Notes under the pieces: generated by a model | Database searches by the model: none | What the model was told of the DNA's origin: nothing | The model's input: the letters and a program-made list of their open reading frames with translations, nothing else | Program-made: the position numbers and the translations under genes | Virus record (IMG/VR): IMGVR_UViG_3300029305_011318 | Reading direction: 5' to 3' (one strand) | Source of the DNA: a virus | Lineage: Duplodnaviria; Heunggongvirae; Uroviricota; Caudoviricetes | DNA length: 64,000 nucleotides | Shown: in pieces, positions 1 through 31,904 of the stretch | How positions within the stretch are numbered: position 1 is the first letter of the stretch | How the letters are laid out: every line of letters begins with the position of its first letter

Positions 1-105
1 AAAATCCGGAATGCCACTTTCTGTAGAAACTCCGGCTCCGCCAAAAAATACAATATTATTGGACTCATCAATAAACTTTAACAAAGTTTGAATTTTTGTA
101 TTCAT
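1..105 (-). CDS. Sir2-family NAD-dependent deacetylase, N-terminal 35 aa only; the gene continues beyond the window start
   Basis: Reverse-complement translation gives MNTKIQTLLKFIDESNNIVFFGGAGVSTESGIPDF, which contains the sirtuin GAGxSxxSGIPDF(R) motif. Start codon at 103..105. Confidence 0.6.
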   Translation of the reverse strand, partial: MNTKIQTLLKFIDESNNIVFFGGAGVSTESGIPDF

Positions 106-126
106 AACAATTACTCCTTATAGTAA

Positions 127-1192
127 TTAAGAATGTTTAAGTAAATATTCTCTGGAAACATTCTTAAAACTCTGCTGACCATCAATACTTCTATATACAA
201 ATCCTTCTCTTTTTACTTTTGGATTAATTTCACTGTAGCCATCAGCTTCTAGTTTCATCTCTTCCATAGTTTTAGGAAGTATATATTCTGTACTGATAAT
301 AGGTACATGGGTTAAATTATTCTGATTACAAAATTCAACCATTTCAATAGTTCCTAAACGAGTACCATTTACTACAAGGTTAAAAATAAATAATTGATTT
401 TCTGTAAACTTATATGGATTGCCTTGTACAGAACCAACTCCCTCACCTTGTAAAACAACTCTGTCGTAACCATTTTTTGTAGCAAAATTGATAAGAATAT
501 TTTCAATTCCATATTTATCTGCTAGTTCCCAATAAATATTAAAGTCGTGATAAGTTTCTTGATTTCTGTCTGCTTGTCTCTTTATCAGTGCTCTCAAGAT
601 AAAATGGTGCATTTTCAATTCGTGTCTCATCGGTCTTAACAATCCACTTTGGAAATTCCTTTGGATTGTCGTGCTTTTTGCCAAAAACCAAAAACATAAT
701 CTTACGACCTAACTTATATTTCATAATCTTTTGTACAAGTGGATGTTTGAATAATTTGGGGTTTCTGTTTGCCATCGCCTTATATTTTGCTTCTGGGTCA
801 ATCTTATTACTCTTTCTCTTAATATCTTTTTCACAAGAATATGTAATCTTGAGTGTTTCTGTAACATCAGTGCCAATAGCTTTATCCTTCAATTCTGGAA
901 ATAAAACAATTGGTAATGCTAATCCTTGACTAAAGACTTTAAATTTTCCTAATTTCATTGTCTTTACCTTATAATGTTTCGATTCAAGAAATGCAAATCG
1001 TTCATCAGTAGATGGACATTTACTGTCAATTTCAATATAGACTGCTGTATCCCCTACGTTAAATTCGCCTTTCTTTGCAATACATACCCAACCAAGAATA
1101 CCGATTAATTCAATATTATCTGCTCCTTCAATGGGTTTAATCCATTCGATTTTTTCAATATGTGCTAATGCTCTTTTAAATTCTTTATTCAT
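127..1192 (-). pseudogene. ATP-dependent RNA ligase-like (DRB0094/Rnl-type), disrupted by a frameshift
   Basis: ORFs 539..1192 and 127..684 overlap in different frames. N-terminal OB/tRNA-binding-like segment IEGADNIELIGILGWVCIAKKGEFNVGDTAVYIEIDS. KTDETR stands where nucleotidyltransferase motif I KxDGxR would be. C-terminal EGFVYRS...K region resembles ligase motifs V/VI. Confidence 0.45.
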
Positions 1193-1225
1193 ATATTACA
1201 ATTCTTTTTTAATTTCACTTTATAA

Positions 1226-1253
1226 TATTATATGTTTAAATTTTTCTCAAAAA
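1226..1253 (-). promoter_or_regulatory. Box-1 promoter-like motif (TTTTGAGAAAnTTTTAnnCATATAA in gene orientation)
   Basis: tattatatgtttaaatttttctcaaaaa on the + strand. This is one of about 20 near-identical copies upstream of minus-strand genes. Confidence 0.5.
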
Positions 1254-1317
1254 TTTCATTATCTCGTTAATATACAATTTCATTATTATTCAGTTTCTTT
1301 ATTGTTTAACAAACGGT

Positions 1318-1497
1318 TTATTTGATTAATACATCTGTAGCAATAAATATAATTGGCATAAATAAAACCATCATAATATTGTCTACAGGTCTATTTACAA
1401 TACATCCATCAATCAATTGTTCAAGCCAACTCCATACACCACAATATGCAAGTGTAATAACTAGAGTTAGACAAAATCTTATAATTAATCGCTCCAT
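1318..1497 (-). CDS. Small membrane protein, 59 aa
   Basis: ATG at 1497, TAA stop, hydrophobic helices. Preceded by a box-3 leader element at 1565..1588. Confidence 0.3.
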   Translation of the reverse strand: MERLIIRFCLTLVITLAYCGVWSWLEQLIDGCIVNRPVDNIMMVLFMPIIFIATDVLIK

Positions 1498-1981
1498 ATT
1501 TTAATACCTTTCAAAATCTCAAATTAAAACTCAAATGATTTTAGTTTCTATTTAAGTTTCTTCGCTAAAAGTCAGTCCTACGGTTTAGTTAATCTCTAAT
1601 TTTCTAAATACTCATCCCAAGCATTTGAAAGATAGTCTGCACCTTCTTTATCATCAGTAATAATGATTGTGTATTTTCCGAGTGTTATGGATGCAAAACC
1701 TGCACCAGATGTTTCCATAGCATCTATCATTGTTTTTATCGTTTCGTTCATTCTGTTATCCTCCTAACATTCAGTTAATCATCTAATTTATGAGTAGACC
1801 AAATGACATTTTCGTTTTCTTCTGCTAAGACTTTAATAATTACCTTAATCGCATTAGCAACACTTTTAGGTACTGTAAAATTGACAACTTCTTTACTTCC
1901 CCAATCGCAAAATTCTATATTAGTCTTTTTCATATTTACCTCTCTAAAATTCAGTTTACATTACATTATTACTGCTCTTCT

Positions 1982-2013
1982 TATACTATACGGTGTTTTT
2001 TTTATTTTGAAAG
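1982..2013 (-). promoter_or_regulatory. Box-2 promoter-like motif (CTTTCAAAAATAAAAAAnACCGTATAGTA in gene orientation)
   Basis: tatactatacggtgttttttttattttgaaag on the + strand. Sigma-A-like TTTCAA-16/17-TATAGT. Followed immediately by a box-1 copy at 2007..2034. Confidence 0.45.
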
Positions 2014-2096
2014 ATAATCATATATGTTTAAATTTTTCTCGAAATATAAAAAACACTTATTAAATACATAATAAGTGTTTCTTGAATTTTGATTTA

Positions 2097-2873
2097 TTAC
2101 ATAATTCTGATAATCTGCTCGTATAAAATAATATCTTTGTCATTGATAGCACGATTAATATGCATATGACCCATAAAATGTTTTTTATATTCGGTATTGA
2201 TTCGAATTTCTTCTAAATATTGTGTAAGCCTATCTTGTTCATATAAACCATGACCAAGTAATGCAGTCACACTTGCAGATGGACTATGTGTTATAATATA
2301 ATCTACTTTGTTATTATGTTTCTTGAGATTATCTAACCCATTTTGCATTTCTTCTTCTGTTGGAAGTTCTTCCGTCCACCAAGATAAGCCTTTAATACGA
2401 TACATGTATTTGCCTTGTTTTTCGAGATTACGGGCTTTTTCTTTCCAATCTGGGTCATTTTTGTCTAAAATACCATCAGAAATATCATGAGAAGAAGCTC
2501 CACCAAACGCAAAGAATTTTTTATCTCCTAAAGTAAATACTTCTCCACGCATTAAGTGTAATACATGTGGTCTGATTTCATGTACTTTTCCGCCATTCCA
2601 TTCTTTTACGGGATAAGTGGCTAAACGTTCATGATTTTCATGATTTCCATCTACAAATACGGTTGTAAAAGGTTTGTTTTCTAACCAATCTAACCAATTT
2701 TTTTCTTGATTGGATTCTTCCGGCATCCAAACTAATCCAAAATCACCATTAATAATTACAATATTTTCATTTTTATTGCCACTAAATTCTTTTTGTTCAT
2801 AAAAATTTTCTACATTTAATCGTCTTGGATTTCCATGAATATCTCCGGTGCTCCAAATAGATTTAATTGTCAT
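2097..2873 (-). CDS. Calcineurin-like metallophosphoesterase
   Basis: GDIHGN, GDFG, DGNHEN and GHMH phosphoesterase motifs. 258 aa. Confidence 0.75.
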   Translation of the reverse strand: MTIKSIWSTGDIHGNPRRLNVENFYEQKEFSGNKNENIVIINGDFGLVWMPEESNQEKNWLDWLENKPFTTVFVDGNHENHERLATYPVKEWNGGKVHEIRPHVLHLMRGEVFTLGDKKFFAFGGASSHDISDGILDKNDPDWKEKARNLEKQGKYMYRIKGLSWWTEELPTEEEMQNGLDNLKKHNNKVDYIITHSPSASVTALLGHGLYEQDRLTQYLEEIRINTEYKKHFMGHMHINRAINDKDIILYEQIIRIM

Positions 2874-2950
2874 ATATTCACTTCCTTTTTAAATCAATAT
2901 ACTTATTGAATCATTTTTTACACTCCTTAAACCTTGATGAAATGGAAAAT

Positions 2951-3271
2951 CTAAAGATATACGCCACTGAGTTTGAAAAACATTCTGGATACATCGCTCA
3001 TTCTTTCAATTAACTCCGTAGATTTCTTTTCTTTATCAATTATCTTCTTCATATCCTCTTCTGAAAGTTCAGTGTATTCGAGCAATCTTTTTACCCAATC
3101 TCTAAGCTTATAGAGTTCTTCTAAATCACTTGCAATACTTTCATTCTGTGATGCAATTATCTTTTCTTTTTCTTTTAGTTGTGATTCCAATTCTCTAATT
3201 CTCTTGTTATACTTTGCTCTTTCTTTATCAAACGCTAAATCTTTAGCAGATTTCTTATAATTTGATGCCAT
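2951..3271 (-). CDS. Coiled-coil hypothetical protein
   Basis: ORF with ATG at 3271 preceded by GGAGGG. K/E-rich heptad-like sequence. The tool-called TTG start at 3292 is less likely. Confidence 0.5.
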   Translation of the reverse strand: MASNYKKSAKDLAFDKERAKYNKRIRELESQLKEKEKIIASQNESIASDLEELYKLRDWVKRLLEYTELSEEDMKKIIDKEKKSTELIERMSDVSRMFFKLSGVYL

Positions 3272-3279
3272 AAACCCTC

Positions 3280-3429
3280 CTACCAAAACCAATAATCATC
3301 GTACCAATCGTCATAATAATCATCGTAATAACTGTAATATTCATCTTCACATTCATATGAATAAGGACAATCAAAATAACAATAATCGTCCCAATAATCA
3401 AAATCTCCAAAGCAACACGGACATGCCAT
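3280..3429 (-). CDS. 49-aa Cys/Tyr/Asp/Trp-rich peptide
   Basis: MACPCCFGDFDYWDDYCYFDCPYSYECEDEYYSYYDDYYDDWYDDYWFW. ATG 8 nt downstream of GTGAGGA. TAG stop abuts the RBS of the next gene. Confidence 0.35.
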   Translation of the reverse strand: MACPCCFGDFDYWDDYCYFDCPYSYECEDEYYSYYDDYYDDWYDDYWFW

Positions 3430-3672
3430 TTGTCTTATCCTCACTTTCTCTCAATAGAATTGAATTTTCAAAGACAAACTATTCGTCTTTCATTGCAACT
3501 TTTACAATTGTTCCAATAATCTGAATCAATAAATCTTCCTGTGTAATATTGTTTCTTCCAGTTAATAAAGTTCCTCTGTTAGCCATATTTTCAAAAGTTT
3601 CAATAAGTTCATATACATTAACTGTTTCGTTCATAACATATCCTCTATTTTCCTGTTAAAACTCGTGTTCTA

Positions 3673-3954
3673 TTACCAATTATATCCAAAAAGACCTACT
3701 CCAAAATCAAGTTCTTTAATCTTTTCATTTGCTTCTTCTTCAGTTTCAAACACATATTCGTTCATGTCAGAAAAGTCACAAAAGACAAACCCGCATGGTT
3801 GATTAATTTCAAATATAACAATCCCTTCATTTGGATTAATTTCATATACTTTAATAGGATATACACCATCATATGTTTGTCTAGAAACACCTATAATTCC
3901 ATATAGCGTCTGTCCAACCTCAATATTTGTGTGTATTTCATATACAAAATTCAT
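3673..3954 (-). CDS. Hypothetical protein
   Basis: 93-aa ORF, co-oriented and tightly packed. Confidence 0.4.
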   Translation of the reverse strand: MNFVYEIHTNIEVGQTLYGIIGVSRQTYDGVYPIKVYEINPNEGIVIFEINQPCGFVFCDFSDMNEYVFETEEEANEKIKELDFGVGLFGYNW

Positions 3955-3975
3955 ATCTTTAGTCTCCTTTTTGAA

Positions 3976-4941
3976 TTAAATAGCCATTTGAAACATTAAT
4001 TGCGGATTTTGTTTCATAATTTCTTCTTTTGGGTAATCAACCATTATAAAATCATCAATGGTAAAATTAAAAAAATCAGTTTTTCCATTATCTTTTAATT
4101 GTAGTCTCGGATTGTTGTTGGTGGCTTTTCGTATTAATAATTCTGCCGCGTTTCCAATGTGTCTATCATAAATTTGCACATTTTCTAATACGTGAGTAAA
4201 TTTACCAACCTTAAATCCACAATGTTTGGCGACCATCATCTGTAATGCTACATATTGTAATTCATTAATGCAAACAGATGTAGCATAATCGCTGCTTCTT
4301 TGATTCATAAGCATATCTAAATATAAGTCGTCGCCTACTTTTCTTACATTCCAAATGGTTTCATAGCAACAAGGATTTAATCCTTTTGTTGTACCTCCTG
4401 TTTCATCTTTAAAATCATCTTCTTGCCACATACACATAATATGTCTACGTCCAAATGGGTCTTTTTTGAGTCCATCTAATAATTTATTAATTAAATTATG
4501 ACGTTTTACAGTGGCTCCATAACGGCACCCAATTGTACCATCTCCAATATCCCATTCATCCCAATAATGAATGCCTAAATTATGTAAGTCTTCTAATTTA
4601 TTAGATTGCATTTGATAAATCCAAAAAATTTCTTTAATGGCACTTTTCCATGCAATTGGTCTAAGCGTAATCATTGGTGTTTCGTTTTTGGACAAATCAT
4701 AAGTTGTGATTTCATGATTAATAAAAAAAGTATGTGCCGGAGTATATAAATACCATTTATTATTTTTTTGAATTAATGACTGGTTTTCTTTCACTTTAAT
4801 GATATTGCCATCTAAGTCCATTACAGTTCTAACATCTACTAAAACTTCATCTTCATAATGTGGTCTTGGATTTTCGTCTTTATATCCTTCTGTTAATATT
4901 TTTTCTAAAATGTGTTTATGATATGTATCACCTTTCGTCAT
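3976..4941 (-). CDS. Thymidylate synthase-family enzyme; could be ThyA or a pyrimidine hydroxymethylase
   Basis: ThyA-like blocks: WKSAIKEIFWIY, GIHYWDEWD, FGRRHIMCMWQ, LNPCCY (catalytic Cys region), NQRSSDYATSVCINELQYVAL, GKFTHVLENVQIYDRH. The N-terminal R-x-DRTGTGT block is replaced by an insertion. Confidence 0.8.
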   Translation of the reverse strand: MTKGDTYHKHILEKILTEGYKDENPRPHYEDEVLVDVRTVMDLDGNIIKVKENQSLIQKNNKWYLYTPAHTFFINHEITTYDLSKNETPMITLRPIAWKSAIKEIFWIYQMQSNKLEDLHNLGIHYWDEWDIGDGTIGCRYGATVKRHNLINKLLDGLKKDPFGRRHIMCMWQEDDFKDETGGTTKGLNPCCYETIWNVRKVGDDLYLDMLMNQRSSDYATSVCINELQYVALQMMVAKHCGFKVGKFTHVLENVQIYDRHIGNAAELLIRKATNNNPRLQLKDNGKTDFFNFTIDDFIMVDYPKEEIMKQNPQLMFQMAI

Positions 4942-4965
4942 AATAATCTCCTGTTTTATTGTTTT

Positions 4966-4999
4966 ATTATATTGTACGATGTTTTTTATTTTTTGAAAG
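4966..4999 (-). promoter_or_regulatory. Box-2 variant upstream of the ThyA-family gene
   Basis: attatattgtacgatgttttttattttttgaaag. Confidence 0.35.
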
Positions 5000-5054
5000 A
5001 AAATAAAAAATATAGTGGCAAATGTTTTGATTTGCTACTATATTTTTCATGGTT

Positions 5055-6746
5055 TTATACAGAAAAATATTGAATTAAGTCAGATAAATTATTAGCAATC
5101 GCATTTACCTGTTGAATAGTATTATTAATTTGGACCACTGATTCGGCTATATCTTGAATTGTGGCTGTAATTTCTTGATTACTTGCTGCACTTTCTTGTG
5201 AAATAGCACTAAGGTCATCAATATTTTGAAGAATTGTTTGTTTACCTAAATCTAATTGAATAGTTTTATTTTGAATATTATTAGTAAGCACAATATTTTT
5301 TTGGATTGCTTCATTTAATTCTTGGAATGCTTGTGAAGCATTCATAATATTTTGTTGTTCTTGTGTAATAATATTTTTTATATTTTCGGATAAAGTAACA
5401 GAATCTGTTGATTTTTGCAATATGTCTTGAACAATATTTTGAATTGTTTCTGCGCCCAATTCACTTTGTTCGGATAATTTTTTAATTTCTTCTGCGACTA
5501 CTGCAAACCCTTTGCCTTGCTCTCCGGCACGAGCTGCTTCAATAGATGCATTTAAACTTAATAATTTTGTCTGATTGGAAATATCTAAAATTAATGCAAC
5601 TGCATCATTAATTTTTATAATTGCATTATTTGTATCGTCTATTTGTGTCGAAATTTTTGATACTGCATCTTGAGATTTTTGTGAACCTTCCAAAACAGTA
5701 TTGACAGACAAAGATGCTTGCTGATTTGCATCTTCCATAATCGTTGTTAATTGGTGTAAGGAAGAAATATCCGTATTAATTTCTGATATATGATTACTTA
5801 CAGAAATAATTTCTGTATTCATGTCTTGTGTTTCTTGTGCAATAGACGTTGCTGTAACGGATAATTCATCCATAGCAATACTTATTTGTTGCATTCCGGT
5901 AGAATTACTATCTGTAGCTTCTTGTAAATTCGTAATCATGTGGTTCATATTTAATACATTTGATTGAATATTTGTAATAATCTCATTTAATTTGTTTTTT
6001 AATATATGGGCTGTATTAATTAATTGTTGTGTTTCATTTAATATAGAATGTACTTCAATCGAATCTGTTAAAGAACCATTTGTTATATTTTCAATAATAT
6101 TTACAGTTTTTGACATTGGGGATTTTACTAATTTAGCGACTAATAATAAAATAATACTAAAAACGATTAGCAAAATGGTCCCAATTATAATGAAACCAAT
6201 CAACATTTGATTAATTGCATTTGTAACTAGTATTTCTTGTTCGCCGGCAAAAGCCATTCCAAATATTTCTCCATCCGCGTCATATACCGGAGTATAGTAA
6301 ACAAAATATTTTTTACCAGCAATATCAATATTGTGAGCTTGATAATCCTGCCCTGTTTTGACAACATCTCAAATTTCTGCATCTGCTTTGATGCCTTCAA
6401 CACGATTTCCTTTATCGTCTTTAATGGAGGAAATGAAACTTGTATCTTTTTCAAAAAGGGTTAAAACAATATCATCTTCCATTAAAGAATCAATAAATTC
6501 ATAACTGGTTTCATCTTTGCACAATATTTCTTCTGCAATGTCCCATTCAAAATATTGTTCAACTGATACTGCACATGTTTTTAATCTTAAATAAATATTA
6601 TTAACAATTTCTTTTTTTAATTGATTGGATGAATAAAATATTGTGACAAATAATGTAGTAATGAGTGGAATTAAACCAATTAAAAAAAAGGTAAAAAATA
6701 AATTCAATTTACGTTTTCTTTTCATAAATACCTCATTAATTCTCAT
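5055..6746 (-). pseudogene. Methyl-accepting chemotaxis protein gene interrupted by one in-frame TGA at 6369..6371
   Basis: ORFs 6369..6746 (TM1 plus Cache-like sensor) and 5055..6368 (TM2 plus MCP signalling domain [34 protein letters not shown]) are in the same frame, separated only by ...[17 protein letters not shown]... Confidence 0.7.
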
Positions 6747-7197
6747 TTGCAGTTAATTGTAATGATTGTTCTCTTTCTTCTAGCCATTGAATTGTTTCTT
6801 CTACCATATTATATACTTCGCTGGCTAAACCATATGTGTTTGCAATTTCTAAGATTTTTTTATCATAATCAATTTCTTCTCCAGATAAACTAATCTTCAT
6901 ATTTGCTTCTAAAAGTAAAATAAGTGATGGTGGCAAATCTTCTTTGGGTGTATATAATTTGTAATTCTGAGGTGATATAGTGTGCCAAAGTATTTCCCAA
7001 TTATAAACAAACCCCATTTTATGTAATAGTGCTTGTCCATTTTCTTCATGATTATAGTTTCCGCGCAAATGTCCTATATCATGAAGTAAGCCTAAAACAT
7101 ACATTTCTTCTTTATCAAGCCCATATTTTTCAGCATTTGCGTACATATATTCCGCAACACCATGCATATGGGCTATTCTCTCAGATGAAAGAACCAT
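6736..7197 (-). CDS. HD-domain phosphohydrolase
   Basis: LGLLHDIGH motif, 153 aa. Confidence 0.7.
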   Translation of the reverse strand: MVLSSERIAHMHGVAEYMYANAEKYGLDKEEMYVLGLLHDIGHLRGNYNHEENGQALLHKMGFVYNWEILWHTISPQNYKLYTPKEDLPPSLILLLEANMKISLSGEEIDYDKKILEIANTYGLASEVYNMVEETIQWLEEREQSLQLTANEN

Positions 7198-7214
7198 TTA
7201 TATACCTCCTATAT

Positions 7215-7418
7215 TTATACAATTTTAGTGACATTAATGGCTTTTAATTTACCATGTTCATTTGTCTCACTAAAAGACACTTGTTCGCCTTTATGTAATT
7301 TTTTATAGCGTTCATTACTGATAATATCTGAATAATGAACAAAATAATCTACACCATTATCGTTGGTAATAAAACCATAACCTTGTTTATTATTAAACCA
7401 TTTAATTTTTCCTGTCAT
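7215..7418 (-). CDS. csp: Cold-shock protein (CspA family)
   Basis: MTGKIKWFNNKQGYGFI...VHYSDI. RNP1/RNP2 cold-shock domain motifs, 67 aa. Confidence 0.9.
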   Translation of the reverse strand: MTGKIKWFNNKQGYGFITNDNGVDYFVHYSDIISNERYKKLHKGEQVSFSETNEHGKLKAINVTKIV

Positions 7419-7439
7419 TAAAAAATCTCCTTTGATATA

Positions 7440-7859
7440 TTATTTTTGCATTATTATATTGGTTTTTTGTATAAATTCTTTTCGTATATTATTGCATAAA
7501 TCATAATTTTTAGTAGAAAATAAATATTGTAAATACGAAACAGCTTCTATATAAATATCTGTTTGATTATCGTTTTGATAAAACCATTCAGTGTCTATTT
7601 TTCGGTTGCAATAAAAATGATTATGTATGGTTGTTTCTAAAGAATATAAATAAGTTGGTTTTGAAACAAAAATTTTTGTAAGATTATGTATTCCGGAATT
7701 ACTTCCTTGCAAAGATTGTATTCTTGCCGCTATATTTTTGGTTCTACCAATTTTAATATGCCCTTCATCATTTTGAACAATATAAATATAAAATTGATTA
7801 TCTGTTAATTCAGGTATATTTTTAATAAAAATTTTTCTATTATCATCAATTAATCGCAT
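7440..7859 (-). CDS. GIY-YIG nuclease (homing endonuclease-like)
   Basis: FYIYIVQNDEGHIKIGRTKNIAARIQSL GIY-YIG core. Sits directly after nrdG. Confidence 0.7.
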   Translation of the reverse strand: MRLIDDNRKIFIKNIPELTDNQFYIYIVQNDEGHIKIGRTKNIAARIQSLQGSNSGIHNLTKIFVSKPTYLYSLETTIHNHFYCNRKIDTEWFYQNDNQTDIYIEAVSYLQYLFSTKNYDLCNNIRKEFIQKTNIIMQK

Positions 7860-8524
7860 GGTTCCAAGTCTTCAATTAGTCCTTCTTCTTCTGCAAAATC
7901 TAATAAATCTACATCTTTGTAATTGGGAGCATTTTTAGTAATTAAATTATCAAAAAGTTCATCCATATCTTTATCTGCGTCGTAATAATCTTGTGCATGT
8001 AAAATAATCTGTTCCATATCTAATGTTTCCGGAACATTAATCACTCTTTGATTTTTACTGCCTTTCCATTGTAATTTAGTATCTCTTGCTTCTTCTATAT
8101 ATTCTCCATCTACAAAAACATCTGTATAATTTAAAATTTCTTTACATACAGACATATGTTCTTCATTAAGATTTTCAATATTATCTTTTCGTAAAATTTC
8201 TTCTAATGTATATCCAGAATATAACCAAATAGTTTTATTCGGATATTTCTCTTTGATTTCTTTTGCTAACGTTAAAATTTCCGGAGCGTTTGCATAATGT
8301 AGAGGGTCTCCTCCGGAAAAAGTAATGCCGGAAATATAATCTTGATTCAGTTGTGCAAAAATTTCTTGTTTTGCTGCATCATCAAATAAAATTCCACTGT
8401 TTTTATCCCATGTTTGTGGATTTTGACATCCTGCACAATGATGTGAACATCCACTAACCCATAAAACAACTCTTAGCCCATCACCATTTTTTAAATCATC
8501 ATGCGTAATATCGTGGTAATTCAT
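7850..8524 (-). CDS. nrdG: Anaerobic ribonucleotide reductase activating protein
   Basis: VLWVSGCSHHCAGCQNPQTW matches the NrdG cluster motif (compare VSGCVHECPGCYNKSTW). ATG at 8524 with AAGGAGG 8 nt upstream. Acidic C-terminal extension. Confidence 0.85.
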   Translation of the reverse strand: MNYHDITHDDLKNGDGLRVVLWVSGCSHHCAGCQNPQTWDKNSGILFDDAAKQEIFAQLNQDYISGITFSGGDPLHYANAPEILTLAKEIKEKYPNKTIWLYSGYTLEEILRKDNIENLNEEHMSVCKEILNYTDVFVDGEYIEEARDTKLQWKGSKNQRVINVPETLDMEQIILHAQDYYDADKDMDELFDNLITKNAPNYKDVDLLDFAEEEGLIEDLEPCD

Positions 8525-9053
8525 ATTCGTACTCCTCCTTATACATAAAAATATACCCACCTGTAGTTTTTCTTCGGTGTTTTAGAACTGCAATTACATT
8601 AGGTTGACAAAAACCAAAATCTTTAACTTTTTCAATAGCACTATATTCTCTAATAACATGAAAATCGGGGTCAAGCTGTACAATAATTTTTCGACACTTA
8701 TGGGGATTCATTCTGTTTTTTTTAGAAATTCGCTCTCCTCTCGTTCCATAATTGCTATTATATTTTGTGGTGCACCATTCTAAATTTGTTAATTTAGGAT
8801 TTTGTTTATTTTCATCTTTATGATTAATTTCTGGCAGGTGAAGTGGATTCGGAATAAAAACCTTTGCCACTAATCTGTGAACTTTAAAGCAATATTTAGA
8901 ACCGTTTTTAAATAGTTGTATTTGAAGATAACCTTTAGAATCCAACCAGGGTTTTAAAAATTTATTAGTTTTAGTCGAATAAATATCTCCATTTTGATTA
9001 ATTAAATAATCTTCAAATCCTGGTATGGGAATCATATTATTGTCATAACTCAT
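8499..9053 (-). CDS. HNH homing endonuclease (NUMOD4 plus HNH_3 type)
   Basis: IPGFEDYLINQNGDIYS, KVHRLVAKVFIPNP, NHKDENKQNPKLTNLEW. Ends with TGA. Its 3' end overlaps the nrdG RBS and start. Confidence 0.75.
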   Translation of the reverse strand: MSYDNNMIPIPGFEDYLINQNGDIYSTKTNKFLKPWLDSKGYLQIQLFKNGSKYCFKVHRLVAKVFIPNPLHLPEINHKDENKQNPKLTNLEWCTTKYNSNYGTRGERISKKNRMNPHKCRKIIVQLDPDFHVIREYSAIEKVKDFGFCQPNVIAVLKHRRKTTGGYIFMYKEEYEYELPRYYA

Positions 9054-9083
9054 GTGTGGTTTTTCCTTTTCATTTAAAATTGT

Positions 9084-9482
9084 TTATTTTCTTGTTGCTA
9101 AACCTATAGTTTTTAATAATTTATTTTGTCTATATAAACGTCTAAAAAACGCTTTTATAAAATCTAAATACAAAATATTATTTTTTAAAATTTTGACTTT
9201 ATCTTTAAATATAATAGTTGTGGATTTTTTACGATTACATTGTTTACACAATGGTTGTAAATTATATAAAGCGTCACTTCCGCCATGATACCAAGGGCGA
9301 ATATGGTCGATTTCTACTCTATTTTCTATCGGTATATCAATATTTTCGTTTCCTGGTCTTCCACACCATTTTTTACAATGTGAGCATCGATACCAATATC
9401 CCTTGGTCCCTTTTCTTCGAACTCCGGGATTATAATGTATATAATTTATTCGTACTTCTGTTTGAGTCATTTCGTATTCCAT
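9084..9482 (-). CDS. HNH endonuclease
   Basis: CSHCKKWC ... EIDHIRPWYHGGSDALYNLQPLCKQCNRKK. Confidence 0.8.
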   Translation of the reverse strand: MEYEMTQTEVRINYIHYNPGVRRKGTKGYWYRCSHCKKWCGRPGNENIDIPIENRVEIDHIRPWYHGGSDALYNLQPLCKQCNRKKSTTIIFKDKVKILKNNILYLDFIKAFFRRLYRQNKLLKTIGLATRK

Positions 9483-9517
9483 TCTTGTTTGAGTTAATAT
9501 ATAAAAATGATTTCTAT

Positions 9518-9544
9518 CTTTATATGGTTAAAAAATTCTCAAAA
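9518..9544 (-). promoter_or_regulatory. Box-1 promoter-like motif
   Basis: ctttatatggttaaaaaattctcaaaa. Lies after a hairpin at about 9590..9620 that terminates the ATPase gene. Confidence 0.5.
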
Positions 9545-9647
9545 AAGATGAAAATTGAATATGACTATATTTTTATAAAGAAAAACCCACTATTCATAAT
9601 GAATAATGGGTAACGTTTATTATTATACATTTTAGTTTTTTCAAAAA

Positions 9648-10376
9648 TTATGAATTTCGTTCTTGTTCTAATGGTGTAATATCTCGTTCTCTTTTCCATT
9701 CTTTACTTTGTAAAACAAAATTACGATATTCTTCATAATCATTAAAAGTAATATATTTACCATTATAAACATCAAAACATTGCTCGTTTCGTGCCATTTC
9801 ATATTCGTTGGCGGAGATTAAAATATAAATCTTATTGCCATAATTATTTTCTAAAATCGTTTTAAACAATAGTTCTTTAATATCAACAATATTATCTACA
9901 CTTAATCCACTATCTACAGCATCTAATAATATCCAACGTTCTTTGGATGGTTCTGATTCTATTATTTCTTCTCCTCTGGCTTTTGCAAAACTTGCAATGA
10001 GTTTTTTGTGTTGTCTATTTTTAGGGTCTTCTCCTGTTTTAACAAAAACACCTAATCGTGCGGCTAAATTTTCAATATTTAAAATAATATTTTCTCCTTC
10101 AGAGGAACACATTGCTGTTGTCATAAATGATAAGTCGCCATAAAATCCTGCTTCAGAAATGGATTTGCTTCCTCCATCATGTAGATTATCAAATAAAATA
10201 TATGGCGTATCATCTTGATTAAATTTATCCCTTAATTGGTGTAATAATGTTGTTTTCCCAATACCATTACAACCAACTAGTACCGTCACGCCCGGTTGAA
10301 TTAAAATTGTGGATTTTTTAAATAAATCAAAGTTTTCTTCATAATAATTTTTTAATAGTTTTATTTTTTTGCTCAT
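9648..10376 (-). CDS. Compact ABC/SMC-type ATPase, 242 aa
   Basis: Walker A GCNGIGKTT. Degenerate signature CSSEGEN. Walker B/D-loop ILLDAVDSGLS. Confidence 0.7.
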   Translation of the reverse strand: MSKKIKLLKNYYEENFDLFKKSTILIQPGVTVLVGCNGIGKTTLLHQLRDKFNQDDTPYILFDNLHDGGSKSISEAGFYGDLSFMTTAMCSSEGENIILNIENLAARLGVFVKTGEDPKNRQHKKLIASFAKARGEEIIESEPSKERWILLDAVDSGLSVDNIVDIKELLFKTILENNYGNKIYILISANEYEMARNEQCFDVYNGKYITFNDYEEYRNFVLQSKEWKRERDITPLEQERNS

Positions 10377-10385
10377 ATATATCTC

Positions 10386-10934
10386 CTATATATAATCATA
10401 TCGGGTTTTATCTCCATATCTATCTTCTCGATATGCCGGATATAAAAAACCGTGCAAAATTTCATCATTTTTATCCGTTAAAACACAAATTAAATGAGGA
10501 TAAATTTCTCCACTTTCATTTTCTATAACAGAATTACTACTACCTTGTTCGTAAATACGTTTTTGTGGAATTTCATATACTCCATAATAAAAATGTACAT
10601 ATTTTGTACCTTTACATTTTTTTGCTAATTCTTCTGCAGTAAAGTTAATTATAGCGTCATTTTTTAATTCTGCTGTTAAAATAGCGTTTAATATTTTTTG
10701 ATAATCTTTCCCTTTTGATGTAAACAATTTTTCTTTTAATGCTTTTGAAAATGGGATGTTTTTAGCTAATGTAATTTCTTTGTTTTGTATTTTAGGGTCT
10801 ATACTGCCTATTGCAAAATTATTATAGCGATTTACTTTTTTGTTCGTAATTTCAGAAATATGTACTCGATGTAAGCAATGCTTTTTAAGCGACATTTTCC
10901 TTGTGTATTCTAAAAAAATTTCTCGTTTAATCAT
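10386..10934 (-). CDS. Hypothetical protein, co-operonic partner of the ABC-type ATPase
   Basis: 182-aa ORF ending 9 nt before the ATPase start. No recognisable motifs. Confidence 0.5.
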   Translation of the reverse strand: MIKREIFLEYTRKMSLKKHCLHRVHISEITNKKVNRYNNFAIGSIDPKIQNKEITLAKNIPFSKALKEKLFTSKGKDYQKILNAILTAELKNDAIINFTAEELAKKCKGTKYVHFYYGVYEIPQKRIYEQGSSNSVIENESGEIYPHLICVLTDKNDEILHGFLYPAYREDRYGDKTRYDYI

Positions 10935-11292
10935 AATACTTATACCTTTATAGCGTTTCTTTATAATAAAATCATAATAATATTAAAAGAAATGTATTAT
11001 GCTACTTATTATAGTAATAATCAAAATACCGACTGCAATTGCTAATTGATTCATCAGGAATTCCGGGTTTGCTGTTCCGGATTCTTTTTTATTGATATGG
11101 CTCATATTTTTCTCTCCTATTCATGTGTAATATATTTAGTGTAGAAAATAACTCAATAAATTAGTATAAAAATTTATAATGTATTTATTAAAAAATATTA
11201 ATAATATGGTCATTATAAATACCGGTATCCAAAAATGAGCAACATAATTAATTTCTCCGGATTCTAATTTAAAATAATGTTTATTTTTCATA

Positions 11293-11886
11293 CTAGTCAT
11301 CTCCTTTTTTTAAATCACTGGTTAATATTGCATAATTCGATGGGAAAATAAATGTATGTAAAATATTAATAATTTCATTTTTTTGTATATTCCGATGATA
11401 TGGGCGTAATGTGAACCATAAATTATATTTTTCAGAATAAACTTCACAAAGATAATTATTGTTTTGAGTAGAAATAATAACATTCCATTCAATATCTACT
11501 AAAATATTATTCAAATTAATTTTTGGTGTGGTTACAGTATAAGAAACTAATTCAGTATTTGTGGCTGTTTGTCCTAATTGAAATAATACATTCATATCTT
11601 CCCAATTAATATTTGGAACATTAATTGTAACCGTGCAAATGTTATTATTAAAATCGTATCCTAATTTTCTATTAAACCCAACCAAATAATAATTTCCATA
11701 TTGTGTTTGGACTGGTAAATTATGTTTGTTTTGTATATTATTTGTTTCCGATATATTTTCTGCTATTGGGAGAATAACAGATTTTGTTTTTGCATAAGTA
11801 ACATATAACGGCAATATACAAAGGATAGCAATATTGATAATACAACCGAAAATGATACAATAAATAAATTTATTATAACGAAGCAT
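11293..11886 (-). CDS. Membrane-anchored hypothetical protein
   Basis: N-terminal TM helix, 197 aa. Confidence 0.5.
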   Translation of the reverse strand: MLRYNKFIYCIIFGCIINIAILCILPLYVTYAKTKSVILPIAENISETNNIQNKHNLPVQTQYGNYYLVGFNRKLGYDFNNNICTVTINVPNINWEDMNVLFQLGQTATNTELVSYTVTTPKINLNNILVDIEWNVIISTQNNNYLCEVYSEKYNLWFTLRPYHRNIQKNEIINILHTFIFPSNYAILTSDLKKGDD

Positions 11887-11915
11887 TATAACTCCTTTTT
11901 ATACATTAATCGTTA

Positions 11916-11943
11916 TTTATATATGTCTAAAAAATTCTCAAAA
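11916..11943 (-). promoter_or_regulatory. Box-1 promoter-like motif
   Basis: tttatatatgtctaaaaaattctcaaaa. Confidence 0.5.
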
Positions 11944-11996
11944 CTTGATATTTTTATATAAAAACCCCTCCTGTTATTAGGAAGGGTTGAAAAAAA

Positions 11997-12395
11997 TTAT
12001 CTGTATTCTTCTTTTAGTTCTTCTGACGGTAAGATAGATTTTAATAATGCAATATATTTTGGTTGCATATATTTTGCATATAGTTTATTAAATTTATCTT
12101 TTGCTTCTTGTTGCTCAATATCTAATGGTGTAAACATGGCATAATTGTTATATAATGGTTTTGTTTCTATACTAAATCCAAAATTTAGCAATATGCATTT
12201 TAATCCCGATTCATTAATTGCTTTTTCTAATTCTTCAGTATCTGCTTTTTTATAATTACTGCCGAACTTCATTTTACTTTCATAAAAATCATGTAAATAA
12301 ATTTGTTCTAAAATCGTTAAATCTTCTATATCTGCAGTTAAACCATCCGGGTCTGATATTTTATATCCATTAAAAGCTTTATAATATTTTGACAT
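11997..12395 (-). CDS. Hypothetical protein
   Basis: 132-aa ORF, 2-nt gap to the upstream gene. Confidence 0.5.
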   Translation of the reverse strand: MSKYYKAFNGYKISDPDGLTADIEDLTILEQIYLHDFYESKMKFGSNYKKADTEELEKAINESGLKCILLNFGFSIETKPLYNNYAMFTPLDIEQQEAKDKFNKLYAKYMQPKYIALLKSILPSEELKEEYR

Positions 12396-12397
12396 GT

Positions 12398-13900
12398 TTA
12401 TATCCTTTCTTCCTCTGAATAATTATCAAAATAACTTTGAATCAGACTTTCATTATGTTCATTTAAGGTAGTAAATTGTAACGAATTGATAAAGTTTTTA
12501 TTTGTTCTTAGTTCCGCTGCATGATTAACGATTTTTTGTATTGTACTATTATCCATATTTGGAAAATCCGGATAATGTTTTTCTATATTTTCCTTAATAA
12601 TTTCATTACGACTAAAAATTACCATATTTTGAAAAACTTCTGTACAAAAATGTTCAAATTCATCTATATTCATTGTTTTATAAGAATTAATTTCATTGGA
12701 TGGGTTTCCTTTATCATAAGTGACTATACCTATTTGCGTTTTACCATTATGTTCTCCGAAAACAACTGAAACTGCTTCATATGTGTTATCTTCGGTTTGT
12801 TTATATGTAGATATTTGAATGGATAATGATTGATGATTTAATAATGCATAAGACGATAATATATTGTATATGTTTTTAAAATTCTTCTCTTTATAATTAT
12901 CTTCAATAATACTTTGAACTTGAACGTTATTAAATTCCCGCAAAAAGTTGTTATTTGGGGTTTTATATTCTGTAATAACCGGAGCATTACTATACCAAGA
13001 AAGCATGGTTTTTACTGTGTCTTCACTAACTTTACTACCGTGATTATCATACCAAGTAAATCCTTTATGAAACGTATTTTTATGAGCATGAAGATGAATA
13101 TCGCCAAATTGCAATACCTTAACTGAATTTTGTTCCATGCCTGCATATAAAGCGTTAATTTGTTGCTGTGCGTGAGTTGATATAGAATATTTTCCAATTA
13201 CTCCATATGTCATATTATCACAGACAGAATTATAAAAATTCTGCATATCTTCTACATTACTAAATTCAAGATTGGTAAATTGTCTTTTTTGAAAATCTTT
13301 TAATTTAGGGTTTTTGGGATTTGTGCAAACACTGGATAAAGAACATCCAGATATATGATTTTCTTCTAAGGTATACATTCTACCATTATTAAAGATAAGC
13401 GTGTCACCTGGTTTCATATATTGTAAATGTGTAACTAATGATTGTGGATATTTATAACCAATACCTAATCCTGTATCTTGTAAAGCTTTTGAATAACCAC
13501 GTAATTCAATATACTCTTTTTTATATGAATCTTCTTTTGTAATAACATTATGCCATATTGTTTGTCTTGGTTTATCTTTATCTTCAATTTGTTGATATGC
13601 TCGTAATTCTTCTAAAGTATTAAATTGATTTTTATGTTCTATTTTTTTATGACCAATATCAACAGTAGAATATTTCTTATAAAAAGACATTCTAAAAATA
13701 GTTCCATTTTCTAATGGTACATCAAAAAAATCACCTTCTTGAAGTTGATTATTTGATAAATATTTCTTGGAAATTTGTTCTAATTCTATATATAAATATA
13801 CTAAATCATGTTTGTATTGTGGGTTGCTTCTGGCTTCTCTGGCTTTGTGCCACATCTCTTTTTCCCAAGTTTTTAAATTATTAAATTCGTTGGTGTTCAT
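12398..13900 (-). CDS. Hypothetical protein, 500 aa
   Basis: Long ORF with no Walker or terminase motifs. Confidence 0.55.
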   Translation of the reverse strand: MNTNEFNNLKTWEKEMWHKAREARSNPQYKHDLVYLYIELEQISKKYLSNNQLQEGDFFDVPLENGTIFRMSFYKKYSTVDIGHKKIEHKNQFNTLEELRAYQQIEDKDKPRQTIWHNVITKEDSYKKEYIELRGYSKALQDTGLGIGYKYPQSLVTHLQYMKPGDTLIFNNGRMYTLEENHISGCSLSSVCTNPKNPKLKDFQKRQFTNLEFSNVEDMQNFYNSVCDNMTYGVIGKYSISTHAQQQINALYAGMEQNSVKVLQFGDIHLHAHKNTFHKGFTWYDNHGSKVSEDTVKTMLSWYSNAPVITEYKTPNNNFLREFNNVQVQSIIEDNYKEKNFKNIYNILSSYALLNHQSLSIQISTYKQTEDNTYEAVSVVFGEHNGKTQIGIVTYDKGNPSNEINSYKTMNIDEFEHFCTEVFQNMVIFSRNEIIKENIEKHYPDFPNMDNSTIQKIVNHAAELRTNKNFINSLQFTTLNEHNESLIQSYFDNYSEEERI

Positions 13901-13944
13901 AAGATACTCCTCATATTAATCAAACTAATATAAAAATTTATATA

Positions 13945-13970
13945 TTTATATGTTTAAAATTTTGTCAAAA
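13945..13970 (-). promoter_or_regulatory. Box-1 promoter-like motif
   Basis: tttatatgtttaaaattttgtcaaaa. Confidence 0.5.
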
Positions 13971-14019
13971 ATTCTAGCCTTATTATAATATAATAAAGAA
14001 AAAACCACTATGAAAAAAA

Positions 14020-14220
14020 TCATAATGGTTTTATAAAAACAGGATATATGCTGCAAATCATATACCCTAACATACCTATACCAAAAATAAATTCTCCTAG
14101 TTTATCTACAAAATCAGCATATGGTTCTTCACGATATTGAATGCTAATCAGCAACAAAACAAATCCAACCATTAACAAGGAGACACAAAATAATTTCATA
14201 CAAAGTAAAAGTGGTATCAT
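14020..14220 (-). CDS. Small membrane protein
   Basis: 66 aa, two hydrophobic helices. 1-nt overlap with the cca stop. Confidence 0.4.
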   Translation of the reverse strand: MIPLLLCMKLFCVSLLMVGFVLLLISIQYREEPYADFVDKLGEFIFGIGMLGYMICSIYPVFIKPL

Positions 14221-15611
14221 TATCTTTCAAAATCCATCTCAAAATCTTTTTCTATTTGTAGATATTGTTGCACTTCATTTAATAAATTTGGTTTGGTGTT
14301 AGGCACTTCATCATTGATTACTTTTTCTAATAAATGATTTAATATCTCTCCAATCATAGGTCCAGAGGACAATTGATATGTATTTATTAAGTCTTTTCCG
14401 TTAATTGCTAAATCATTTAATTTGAAAGCAGCATCTTCGTCTTTAATTTGTTGTAAATATGTATCAATTTCAAAAATTTCGCCCCATGTAGGTATAATAT
14501 TGTCCGGAAAAATATGGTCTTTGACATCTGCATGATGTATTTTCATTAAAGCTTGTAAATTTTCTTCCCCAAATTTATTTAGATTTTTTTTGACAAATCG
14601 TAAAGAGTTTTCAAAATTATAATCATGGTATTGAACTAATATTAATAGTTTCTCTTTTTCTTTTTTGGTTAAAGTTAAATCATATTGACAAATGTTTTCA
14701 GTAATTTCTTTACTTTTTTCCGGATGACCGTGAAAAGTTCCTTTGCCATTAATTTGTTCATAACACGCTGGTTTTCCTATATCATGAAATAATCCTGCTA
14801 ATTTAGTAATAAAATCATCAGATTCAATAGCATCGGTTACACACAAACAATGTTCATACACATCATGTTCATGGTATGGATTATTTTGCTGGAAATTAAA
14901 TGATGGTCTAAAATCAGTGATAAGACTGCCAATAACATCTTTATATTCTAAAAAAATATCATGAATAGGTTGTCCACAAGTTAATATTTTGCGAAATTCT
15001 TCTGTTACTCGTTCTTTGGAAATGTTACTTAACAAATATACATTTCTATGAATCGCTTCTGCTGTTTCTTTTTCAATTGTAAAGCCATATTTAATAGCAA
15101 AACGTAATGCTCGTAGTATTCGTAAAGCATCTTCTTCAAATCTTTGGTCCGGATTACCTACAGCTCGAATGATACCATTTTTTAAATCTTCTCTTGCTCC
15201 TTCTACTTCTACATATCCTTTTGTTGGATGATAAGCAATTGCATTAATCGTAAAATCACGTCGTTTTAAATCTTCCATAATATCTTTTGTAAATTCAATG
15301 TTATCCGGATGGCGATTATCTGCATATCCATTCTCTTTACGATATGTGGTAATTTCATAATCATCATTTACACCTTGTATTATAAGGGTTCCGAATTTAG
15401 TGCTATTATTATTTTCATAAAAGGACATATTATTATGTTGGAATAATTCTTTCATTTCATCCGGTGTTAAATTTGTGCATAAATCAAAATCATTAGGTGT
15501 TTTATGTAGTAACATATCTCTTACAAATCCACCAACAAAATATAATTCTGTGTCCTTATTCCATTTCTCAAACATTGGAAATAAATCTAATGGTCCATGA
15601 AGAAAAATCAT
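14220..15611 (-). CDS. cca: CCA-adding tRNA nucleotidyltransferase with HD domain
   Basis: GGFVRD, RDFTINA, HD block LFHDIGK. ATG at 15611 preceded by AAGGAGAG. Box-1 variant at 15663..15688. Confidence 0.85.
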   Translation of the reverse strand: MIFLHGPLDLFPMFEKWNKDTELYFVGGFVRDMLLHKTPNDFDLCTNLTPDEMKELFQHNNMSFYENNNSTKFGTLIIQGVNDDYEITTYRKENGYADNRHPDNIEFTKDIMEDLKRRDFTINAIAYHPTKGYVEVEGAREDLKNGIIRAVGNPDQRFEEDALRILRALRFAIKYGFTIEKETAEAIHRNVYLLSNISKERVTEEFRKILTCGQPIHDIFLEYKDVIGSLITDFRPSFNFQQNNPYHEHDVYEHCLCVTDAIESDDFITKLAGLFHDIGKPACYEQINGKGTFHGHPEKSKEITENICQYDLTLTKKEKEKLLILVQYHDYNFENSLRFVKKNLNKFGEENLQALMKIHHADVKDHIFPDNIIPTWGEIFEIDTYLQQIKDEDAAFKLNDLAINGKDLINTYQLSSGPMIGEILNHLLEKVINDEVPNTKPNLLNEVQQYLQIEKDFEMDFER

Positions 15612-15721
15612 ATAACTCTCTCCTTTATTGTTCATTTATAAAAACTTACACTTCTATATGTATAAATTTTCTTCAAAAATAATAAGCCACTAACATAATA
15701 ATGTTAATGACTTAAAATAAA

Positions 15722-17356: not shown

Positions 17357-17404
17357 GATACACCTCCGATGCAGTTAGATAAAAGAATTATAACACATTC
17401 TATA

Positions 17405-29902: not shown

Positions 29903-29906
29903 TAAA

Positions 29907-31900: not shown

Positions 31901-31904
31901 ATCA

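What the first reader, a model, noticed from the sequence alone, without database searches (positions are those of the whole stretch)
7440..9482. Orphan nrdG wrapped in three homing endonuclease genes, with no nrdD anywhere in the window
NrdG (the radical-SAM activase) normally follows nrdD. Here its upstream neighbours are two HNH endonucleases (8499..9053, 9084..9482), and a GIY-YIG nuclease (7440..7859) follows it. The 3' end of the first HNH gene overlaps the nrdG RBS and start, which is typical of homing-endonuclease insertion next to conserved phage nrd genes. Either nrdD was lost, or this NrdG activates the host NrdD or another glycyl-radical enzyme.
Basis: partly seen in the sequence, partly recalled or inferred. 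Interest (0 to 1): 0.55.

Follow-up and report, generated by a model that had tools for sequence, protein, structure and literature searches.

The report
nrdG flanked by nucleases; nrdD nearby
The activase gene nrdG is not an orphan: its partner nrdD lies 13 kb downstream on the same strand, just outside the window, so this is an ordinary case of selfish nuclease genes and an intein gathered around ribonucleotide reductase genes.

Summary
They are nrdG (7850..8524, minus strand; NrdG equivalog model above its cut-off), an I-HmuI-like HNH gene (8499..9053), a small HNH gene (9084..9482) and a T5orf172/MUG113 gene of the GIY-YIG clan (7440..7859). The first HNH gene does overlap the nrdG ribosome-binding site and its first 26 nt. 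The window holds no nrdD.

The "orphan" reading fails. The window matches JGI contig Ga0318466_10002936 at 100% identity over the 18.5 kb compared. On that contig a 1087-aa NrdD sits 5.1-8.4 kb left of the window, on the same strand, 12.9 kb downstream of nrdG. It has an ATP-cone, a zinc ribbon and a glycyl-radical motif. A 368-aa LAGLIDADG intein interrupts it directly before the cysteine that aligns with T4 NrdD Cys290.

The likeliest working model is that NrdG activates the element's own NrdD once the intein has spliced out.

Free-standing HNH and GIY-YIG genes at nrdG/nrdD (T4 mobC, segH) and nrdD inteins (Clostridium phage c-st) are already described. Among 170 loci with NrdG homologues, 33 have no nrdD within at least 5 kb.

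This is a new member of a known kind and of low interest.

The parts
7850..8524 (-). nrdG, the radical-SAM activase of the anaerobic (class III) ribonucleotide reductase. It is 224 aa, with a roughly 60-aa acidic C-terminal tail beyond the 154-position family model.
   Evidence: TIGR02491 scores 180.9 bits (cut-off 126.1) over model positions 1-153 of 154. Fer4_12 E=1.4e-49. phrog_626. CSHHCAGC motif, and ATG at 8524 with an RBS 7 nt upstream.
8532..8540 (-). Shine-Dalgarno sequence AAGGAGGAG of nrdG, lying inside the 3' end of the upstream HNH gene.
   Evidence: Read directly from the sequence.
8499..9053 (-). Free-standing I-HmuI-like HNH endonuclease gene (184 aa; NUMOD4, HNH_3 and NUMOD-like regions). 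Its last 26 nt overlap nrdG.
   Evidence: phrog_59 E=1.3e-40 and phrog_959 E=6e-32. Three sub-threshold Pfam hits in the expected order. A homologue with 41% identity sits immediately after nrdD in L010, L011, L171 and L172.
9084..9482 (-). Small HNH (PF01844-type) endonuclease gene, 132 aa. JGI calls its start at 9470, giving 128 aa.
   Evidence: PF01844 scores 48.8 bits against a cut-off of 21.4. Many PHROG HNH families match. CSHC..C and CKQC zinc motifs and DH..N..N are visible in the translation.
7440..7859 (-). T5orf172/MUG113 gene (GIY-YIG clan), 139 aa. Its start overlaps the end of nrdG by 10 nt.
   Evidence: PF10544 scores 37 bits (cut-off 20) and PF13455 scores 33.1 bits (cut-off 22.3). 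PF01541 GIY-YIG scores only 17.2 bits, below its cut-off of 22.6. phrog_18411 'homing endonuclease' E=1.9e-6; the better PHROG hits have unknown function.
9585..9611 (-). Terminator-like hairpin followed by a T-run, after the upstream AAA-ATPase gene. It lies upstream of the tightly packed gene run from the small HNH gene to the T5orf172 gene.
   Evidence: It is the only terminator-like site in 6500..10500, with 12 pairs. One site is no more than the shuffles give (mean 1.3), so this is weak evidence.
60049..61434 (-). Tyrosine integrase at the right end of the low-GC element. TetR and an AcrB fragment follow at 38.6% GC and look like host flank. This is context for where the element ends.
   Evidence: PF00589 E=2e-27, with TetR_N and ACR_tran beyond it. 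GC is 27.8% inside the element and 38.6% outside.

Best explanation
nrdG belongs to a complete class III ribonucleotide reductase system carried by a large, low-GC, integrase-bearing element.

Its partner nrdD lies 12.9 kb downstream on the same strand, at window coordinates about -5094 to -8357 (locus L007 16287..19550).

nrdD is translated as a 1087-aa precursor. A 368-aa intein with a two-motif LAGLIDADG endonuclease domain sits directly before the cysteine that aligns with T4 NrdD Cys290. From my own knowledge, that residue is the thiyl-radical cysteine.

Protein splicing would give a 719-aa NrdD. NrdG, a [4Fe-4S]/SAM enzyme, would then generate the glycyl radical in its C-terminal RMNGY motif.

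The two HNH genes and the T5orf172 gene around nrdG are most likely free-standing selfish nuclease genes. They would have lodged beside a conserved gene and be expressed as part of its transcript, in the manner of T4 mobC and segH.

Shown here: gene identities, positions, overlaps, motifs and the intein junctions.
Inferred: splicing, activation and nuclease activity.
For: Location of nrdD:
- The window is 100% identical over 18.5 kb to JGI contig Ga0318466_10002936.
- Locus L007 from that contig carries a 1087-aa gene annotated ATP-cone, NRDD, Intein_splicing, LAGLIDADG_3, NRDD.

Identity and intactness of NrdD:
- TIGR02487 NrdD scores 532 bits (cut-off 326) in two stretches, residues up to 401 and from 756.
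- The junctions read PMG|CVDG...SHN|CRAFL. A TEDH block B, the motifs LLGFMLCDG and LAGMIDADG, a CDDC..CPKC zinc ribbon and RMNGY are all present.
- Residue 401 aligns with position 290 of the T4 NrdD structure 1h78.

NrdG:
- The NrdG equivalog model is passed. The activase models for pyruvate formate-lyase and other glycyl-radical enzymes score far below their cut-offs.

Relatives:
- nrdD and nrdG are adjacent in 114 of 170 homologue loci, in either order.
- In the nearest NrdG relative, L097, a NUMOD3-repeat ORF lies between nrdD and nrdG and overlaps the nrdG start by 17 nt.
- A homologue of the first HNH gene follows nrdD in four loci.

Literature:
- T4 mobC (HNH) lies between nrdG and nrdD. 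[quoted passage not shown]
- The nrdD of Clostridium phage c-st carries a putative intein, and phage nrd genes are sometimes located far apart (PMC3653736).
Against: - nrdG and nrdD are not adjacent and are probably not co-transcribed; about 20 called genes lie between them.
- Intein splicing and nuclease activity are untested.
- No close relative lacking the nuclease genes was found, so their status as insertions rests on family membership and on analogy.
- T5orf172 proteins have no established homing activity.
- The left half of the contig (about 54 kb) could not be read, so a second nrdG or nrdD there is not excluded.
Confidence: 0.85

Rival explanations
1. nrdG is functionally orphan. It activates the host's NrdD or a different glycyl-radical enzyme, and the element's nrdD plays no part.
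For: The two genes lie 12.9 kb apart. Stand-alone nrdG is common in Blautia-type genomes: 33 of 170 loci, where nrdG follows pnp. That shows NrdG can act on an NrdD encoded far away.
Against: The element encodes its own NrdD with every catalytic motif. NrdG passes the NrdG equivalog model, and all other activase models fall far below their cut-offs. No other glycyl-radical enzyme was seen among the 88 window ORFs.
Confidence: 0.05
2. The intein-bearing nrdD is a dead gene because it cannot splice, so NrdG survives only because it serves the host enzyme, or because it is itself decaying.
For: The intein sits directly before the cysteine that aligns with T4 NrdD Cys290, so an unspliced precursor would probably be inactive (the effect on activity is my inference). 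TIGR01445 intein_Nterm is below its cut-off at 20.5 bits against 24.5.
Against: The 1087-codon frame is uninterrupted. Cys1, block B TxxH, the terminal HN and the +1 Cys are all present, as are both LAGLIDADG motifs. The stretches around nrdG and around the integrase are 100% identical in contigs from three further samples. A related intein (36% identity) sits in the annotated nrdD of Eggerthella phage EL753P1.
Confidence: 0.08
3. The three nuclease-like genes are not homing endonucleases. They serve the element in another way, for example DNA processing, host DNA degradation, exclusion of competitors or regulation. Their position beside nrdG would then reflect a shared early or nucleotide-metabolism module.
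For: T5orf172/MUG113 has no proven homing role, and its best PHROG hits have unknown function. The small PF01844 HNH protein has no recognisable DNA-binding extension. No presence/absence polymorphism could be shown.
Against: The first HNH gene has the NUMOD4, HNH_3, NUMOD-like architecture of I-HmuI-type homing enzymes. It recurs beside nrdD in four unrelated loci. An overlap with the neighbouring gene and the lack of an own promoter match T4 mob and seg genes (PMC2988022).
Confidence: 0.25

Closest known systems
Phage T4 nrdG/nrdD region with mobC (free-standing HNH), segH (GIY-YIG) in its place in related phages, and the I-TevII-encoding intron in nrdD
   Same: Free-standing HNH and GIY-YIG-clan genes sit directly next to nrdG. 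They overlap their neighbours by tens of nucleotides and no own promoter was detected. nrdD carries a mobile intervening sequence that encodes an endonuclease.
   Different: Here nrdG and nrdD lie 12.9 kb apart. There are three nuclease-like genes instead of one. The GIY-YIG-clan member is of the T5orf172 type. nrdD carries an intein with a LAGLIDADG domain instead of a group I intron with a GIY-YIG gene. The host is apparently a low-GC anaerobe, and the element carries an integrase.
nrdD with a putative intein in Clostridium phage c-st / D-1873 (PMC3653736); the nrdD of Eggerthella phage EL753P1 holds a homologue of this intein
   Same: A class III reductase large-subunit gene of a phage of anaerobes, interrupted by an intein. 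The EL753P1 sequence is 36% identical to this intein over 88% of its length.
   Different: I did not compare the insertion site in c-st. The sequences are distant.
Stand-alone nrdG of Blautia and other Lachnospiraceae (nrdG downstream of pnp)
   Same: nrdG is encoded more than 10 kb from any nrdD. These NrdG proteins are 59-62% identical to this one.
   Different: They are chromosomal housekeeping loci without flanking nuclease genes. In a neighbour-joining tree the window's NrdG groups with L096, L097 and L098; in L097 and L098 nrdD lies 744 nt upstream of nrdG.

Membership tests
NrdG (class III RNR activase, TIGR02491) | Full-length match to the equivalog model above its curated cut-off | tested here: met
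   180.9 bits against a cut-off of 126.1, over model positions 1-153 of 154.
NrdG (class III RNR activase, TIGR02491) | Radical-SAM CX3CX2C cluster motif near the N-terminus | tested here: met
   GCSHHCAGC in the translation. Fer4_12 and Radical_SAM Pfam hits.
NrdG (class III RNR activase, TIGR02491) | A cognate NrdD in the same genome | tested here: met
   NrdD at L007 16287..19550 on the same contig and strand, 12.9 kb downstream.
NrdG (class III RNR activase, TIGR02491) | Generates the glycyl radical on NrdD | not testable with these tools
   This is a biochemical activity.
NrdD (TIGR02487) | Match above cut-off, C-terminal zinc ribbon, RxxGY glycyl-radical motif and the cysteine aligning with T4 NrdD Cys290 | tested here: met
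   532 bits against a cut-off of 326. CDDC..CPKC, RMNGY and PMG|..|CRAFL are present. Aligned to T4 NrdD structure 1h78 up to position 290.
Intein with LAGLIDADG homing endonuclease domain | In-frame insertion with Cys/Ser at position 1, block B TxxH, C-terminal HN, a +1 Cys/Ser/Thr and two LAGLIDADG motifs | tested here: met
   C401, TEDH, SHN768 and C769, with LLGFMLCDG and LAGMIDADG. JGI Pfam calls Intein_splicing and LAGLIDADG_3. TIGR01445 is just below its cut-off.
Intein with LAGLIDADG homing endonuclease domain | Protein splicing and homing activity | not testable with these tools
   This needs an experiment.
Free-standing HNH homing endonuclease (I-HmuI / mob-like) | HNH_3 catalytic motif together with NUMOD-type DNA-binding modules | tested here: inconclusive
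   The Pfam hits to NUMOD4, HNH_3 and I-HmuI_NUMOD-like are all below gathering scores. phrog_59 'HNH endonuclease' E=1.3e-40.
Free-standing HNH homing endonuclease (I-HmuI / mob-like) | Presence/absence polymorphism between close relatives, with cleavage of the allele that lacks the gene | tested here: inconclusive
   No close relative was found in IMG/VR, GTDB genomes or metagenome contigs. The only support is recurrence of homologues beside nrdD in four distant loci.
GIY-YIG homing endonuclease (seg / I-TevI-like) | Match to the canonical GIY-YIG catalytic domain (PF01541) | tested here: not met
   17.2 bits against a cut-off of 22.6. The protein matches T5orf172 and MUG113 of the same clan instead.

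The most novel reading that the evidence does not exclude
The block of two HNH genes, nrdG and the T5orf172 gene is a mobile cassette. Nuclease-driven double-strand-break repair would have moved nrdG away from nrdD, so that free-standing homing endonucleases here carried a cargo gene to a new site and broke up the nrdDG operon.
Probability: 0.07. Interest if true: 0.45.

Novelty: new member of a known kind. Interest (0 to 1): 0.18.

Why it matters
It matters little beyond correct annotation. It shows that a gene can look orphaned simply because the window ends before its partner, here by 5 kb. It also adds one more example, from an uncultured low-GC integrated element, of class III ribonucleotide reductase genes acting as a hot spot for selfish elements. 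In this one element there are free-standing HNH and GIY-YIG-clan genes around nrdG and an intein in nrdD. In relatives, intervening sequences occupy the same PMG|C site.

Tried and rejected
- megablast of window 4000..14000 against phage records found no match.
- tblastn of SP27 NrdD against the window gave only a spurious E=0.006 hit. That hit lies in what proved to be the integrase gene.
- An exact-protein look-up of the leftmost ORF failed, apparently because of its non-ATG start. The neighbouring ORF worked.
- Walking further left on the contig was not possible. Look-ups accept only proteins encoded in the window, and NrdG, the only query that would have found it, did not retrieve the contig from IMG/VR.
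- The metagenome scan (best match 62% identity) and the IMG/VR scans with the flanking AAA-ATPase and the 500-aa ORF found no close relatives. I therefore could not test whether the nuclease genes are insertions.
- Rfam found no group I intron in the intervening sequences at the PMG|C site of L008 and L012. The 275-nt L012 insert folds no better than shuffled sequence (z = -1.4). Their intron nature stays unproven.
- I considered a separate origin for nrdG, from the stand-alone Blautia-type clade. The neighbour-joining tree does not support it: the window's NrdG groups with L096, L097 and L098.
- The promoter scan gave no more sites than shuffled sequence, 32 against 29.3.

Full report
**1. 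The observation**

The region 7440..9482 holds four tightly packed ORFs on the minus strand.

- nrdG (7850..8524):
  - It passes the NCBIfam NrdG equivalog model TIGR02491, at 180.9 bits against a cut-off of 126.1 over model positions 1-153 of 154.
  - The activase models for pyruvate formate-lyase and other glycyl-radical enzymes score far below their cut-offs.
  - Pfam Fer4_12 (E=1.4e-49) and Radical_SAM agree, as does phrog_626.
  - The real start is the ATG at 8524, preceded 7 nt upstream by AAGGAGGAG at 8540..8532. The listed GTG at 8560 is not the start.
- HNH gene 8499..9053:
  - It has sub-threshold Pfam hits to NUMOD4, HNH_3 and the I-HmuI NUMOD-like domain, in the right order.
  - It has a strong hit to phrog_59 'HNH endonuclease', E=1.3e-40.
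- HNH gene 9084..9482: a PF01844 HNH protein, 48.8 bits against a cut-off of 21.4.
- ORF 7440..7859:
  - It matches T5orf172 and MUG113 above their cut-offs, but the canonical GIY-YIG model only below its cut-off.
  - It is therefore a GIY-YIG-clan protein and not a proven GIY-YIG homing endonuclease.
  - It overlaps the end of nrdG by 10 nt.

**2. No nrdD in the window, but one just outside it**

- tblastn with phage SP27 NrdD and with the element's own NrdD finds nothing credible in the window.
- A Pfam scan of 88 window ORFs shows no NRDD family.
- An exact-protein look-up placed nrdG on JGI contig Ga0318466_10002936 (127,223 bp). The window is 100% identical to that contig over the 18.5 kb compared, and window position 1 corresponds to record position 64,059.
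- A second look-up, from the ORF at 539..1192, reached 9.5 kb to the left of the window (locus L007). It revealed a 1087-aa gene with precomputed Pfam hits ATP-cone, NRDD, Intein_splicing, LAGLIDADG_3, NRDD.
- That gene sits at L007 16287..19550, which is window coordinates about -5094 to -8357. It is on the same strand as nrdG and 12.9 kb downstream of it.
- It scores 532 bits on TIGR02487 NrdD (cut-off 326), in two stretches.

**3. The NrdD protein**

- The translation shows an uninterrupted frame.
- The insertion runs from residue 401 to residue 768. Its junctions read ...VVSPMG|CVDGKEI...GIYSHN|CRAFLSPW...
- It has Cys1, a TEDH block B, a terminal HN and a +1 Cys. It also has two LAGLIDADG motifs (LLGFMLCDG and LAGMIDADG). 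These are the features of a complete intein with a homing-endonuclease domain.
- The alignment to the T4 NrdD structure 1h78 ends exactly at chain position 290. From my own knowledge, Cys290 is the thiyl-radical cysteine of T4 NrdD. On that basis the intein sits directly before the catalytic cysteine, and that cysteine doubles as the +1 splicing nucleophile.
- The C-terminus keeps the zinc ribbon (CDDC...CPKC) and the glycyl-radical motif RMNGY.
- The closest phage homologue of the intein (36% identity) lies in the annotated nrdD of Eggerthella phage EL753P1.

**4. Context from relatives**

I compared 170 loci that encode NrdG homologues of 33-62% identity. They came from phage records, IMG/VR, GTDB genomes and metagenomes. 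The position of nrdD relative to nrdG was as follows:

| Position of nrdD relative to nrdG | Loci |
|---|---|
| Immediately upstream | 109 |
| Immediately downstream | 5 |
| Upstream, within 3 kb | 2 |
| 9 kb upstream (L058) | 1 |
| None found, with at least 5 kb of flank on both sides | 33 |
| None found, flank too short to judge | 20 |

- In the unlinked class, for example Blautia producta DSM 2950, nrdG follows pnp. Physical separation of nrdG from nrdD is a common minority arrangement.
- Mobile insertions recur at this locus:
  - L008 and L009 have a 946-nt intervening sequence with a GIY-YIG ORF at the same PMG|C site. L012 has a 275-nt ORF-less one there. Rfam does not recognise either as a group I intron.
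  - L097 is the nearest NrdG relative in a neighbour-joining tree. Its nrdD holds an intein-like in-frame insertion at another site. A NUMOD3-repeat ORF lies between its nrdD and nrdG and overlaps the nrdG start by 17 nt.
  - A homologue of the first HNH gene (41% identity) follows nrdD in L010, L011, L171 and L172.

**5. The element**

- Nearly all genes are on the minus strand, at 27.8% GC.
- A tyrosine integrase at 60049..61434 is followed by TetR and an AcrB fragment at 38.6% GC. The window therefore contains the right-hand junction of an integrated element of at least 70 kb, and probably about 125 kb.
- The stretch around nrdG and the integrase-TetR junction are each 100% identical in short contigs from three further JGI samples.
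- No phage structural family appeared among the window's ORFs, and NrdG did not retrieve the contig from IMG/VR. The element's phage nature is plausible but not shown. In favour are thyA, nrdDG, an RNA ligase, a CCA-adding enzyme, R2K ATP-grasp proteins, tRNAs and the HNH genes.

**6. Mechanism**

- The simplest model is that the element encodes a complete class III reductase. NrdD would be made as an intein-containing precursor, splice, and then be activated by NrdG.
- The nuclease genes are best read as free-standing selfish genes that ride on the nrdG transcript. A terminator-like hairpin at 9611..9585 precedes the cluster, and no promoter signal above chance was found.
- Splicing, activation and nuclease activity are all inferred.

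**7. Comparison with what is known**

- Phage T4 has mobC, a free-standing HNH gene inserted between nrdG and nrdD, and I-TevII is encoded in the T4 nrdD intron.
[quoted passage not shown] The paper cited for this is titled as describing SegH and Hef, whose genes replace mobC and mobE in several T4-related phages.
- Overlaps of 11-24 bp with neighbouring genes, and promoter-less endonuclease cassettes, are described for T4 (all from PMC2988022).
- A survey of phage RNR genes found nrdD to be the most often split RNR gene. [quoted passage not shown]
- This locus is therefore a new member of a known kind.

**8. Verdict**

The ORF calls are right and the "orphan" interpretation is wrong. The finding is ordinary.

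Noticed in passing
L007 16287..19550 (window about -8357..-5094): nrdD carries a 368-aa LAGLIDADG intein directly before the cysteine that aligns with T4 NrdD Cys290 (PMG|C). In relatives L008 and L009 the same site holds a 946-nt sequence with a GIY-YIG ORF, and in L012 a 275-nt ORF-less sequence. This may be a case of an intron and an intein sharing one site. Rfam did not recognise either sequence as a group I intron.
   Followed up: partly
window 5055..6746 (-): There is a methyl-accepting chemotaxis protein gene inside the low-GC element. It appears split into a 125-aa piece with a transmembrane segment and a sCache domain (6369..6746) and a 400-aa piece with the MCP signalling domain (5055..6257). 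That is odd cargo for a phage-like element. The MCP-domain ORF is 31-36% identical to sequences a few kb from nrdG in several Lachnospiraceae and related Firmicutes loci.
   Followed up: no
window 127..1192 (-): An RNA ligase seems split by a frameshift. The PHA02142 OB-fold ORF (539..1192) overlaps the RNA_ligase-domain ORF (127..684) by 146 nt. The JGI contig has identical sequence here.
   Followed up: no
window 60049..64000: This is the right-hand junction of the element. A tyrosine integrase is followed by TetR and an AcrB fragment at 38.6% GC, against 27.8% inside the element. The same junction is 100% identical in a 4-kb contig from another sample (L006).
   Followed up: partly
window 14220..15635, 52667..52740, 58307..58380: The element carries a CCA-adding enzyme gene plus tRNA-Met and tRNA-Gln genes. 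Together with the RNA ligase and two metallophosphatases, this could be a tRNA repair or supply module.
   Followed up: no
L007 11088..12222 (window about -1029..105): A Sir2-type NAD-dependent deacylase gene is followed by an N-terminally truncated PnuC (131 aa, matching model positions 69-187 of 187). Both lie between nrdG and nrdD.
   Followed up: no
window 40770..50924 and 53041..57453: This stretch holds cell-surface or cell-biology cargo: an 1811-aa protein with an ALK/LTK glycine-rich domain and a Listeria-Bacteroides repeat, two SPFH proteins, a bactofilin, a BspA-type LRR protein and two S26 signal peptidases. No phage structural family was detected anywhere in the window.
   Followed up: no
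window 1..64000 against contig Ga0318466_10002936: Window position 1 maps to record position 64,059 of a 127,223-bp contig, so the window would overrun that contig by 835 bp. The window therefore probably comes from the second long contig that the look-up reported but did not show.
   Followed up: no
L023 and L017, 7686..10489: In Blautia producta and its relatives, nrdG sits directly after pnp (polynucleotide phosphorylase), with no nrdD within 10 kb. This arrangement is conserved across many genomes.
   Followed up: partly
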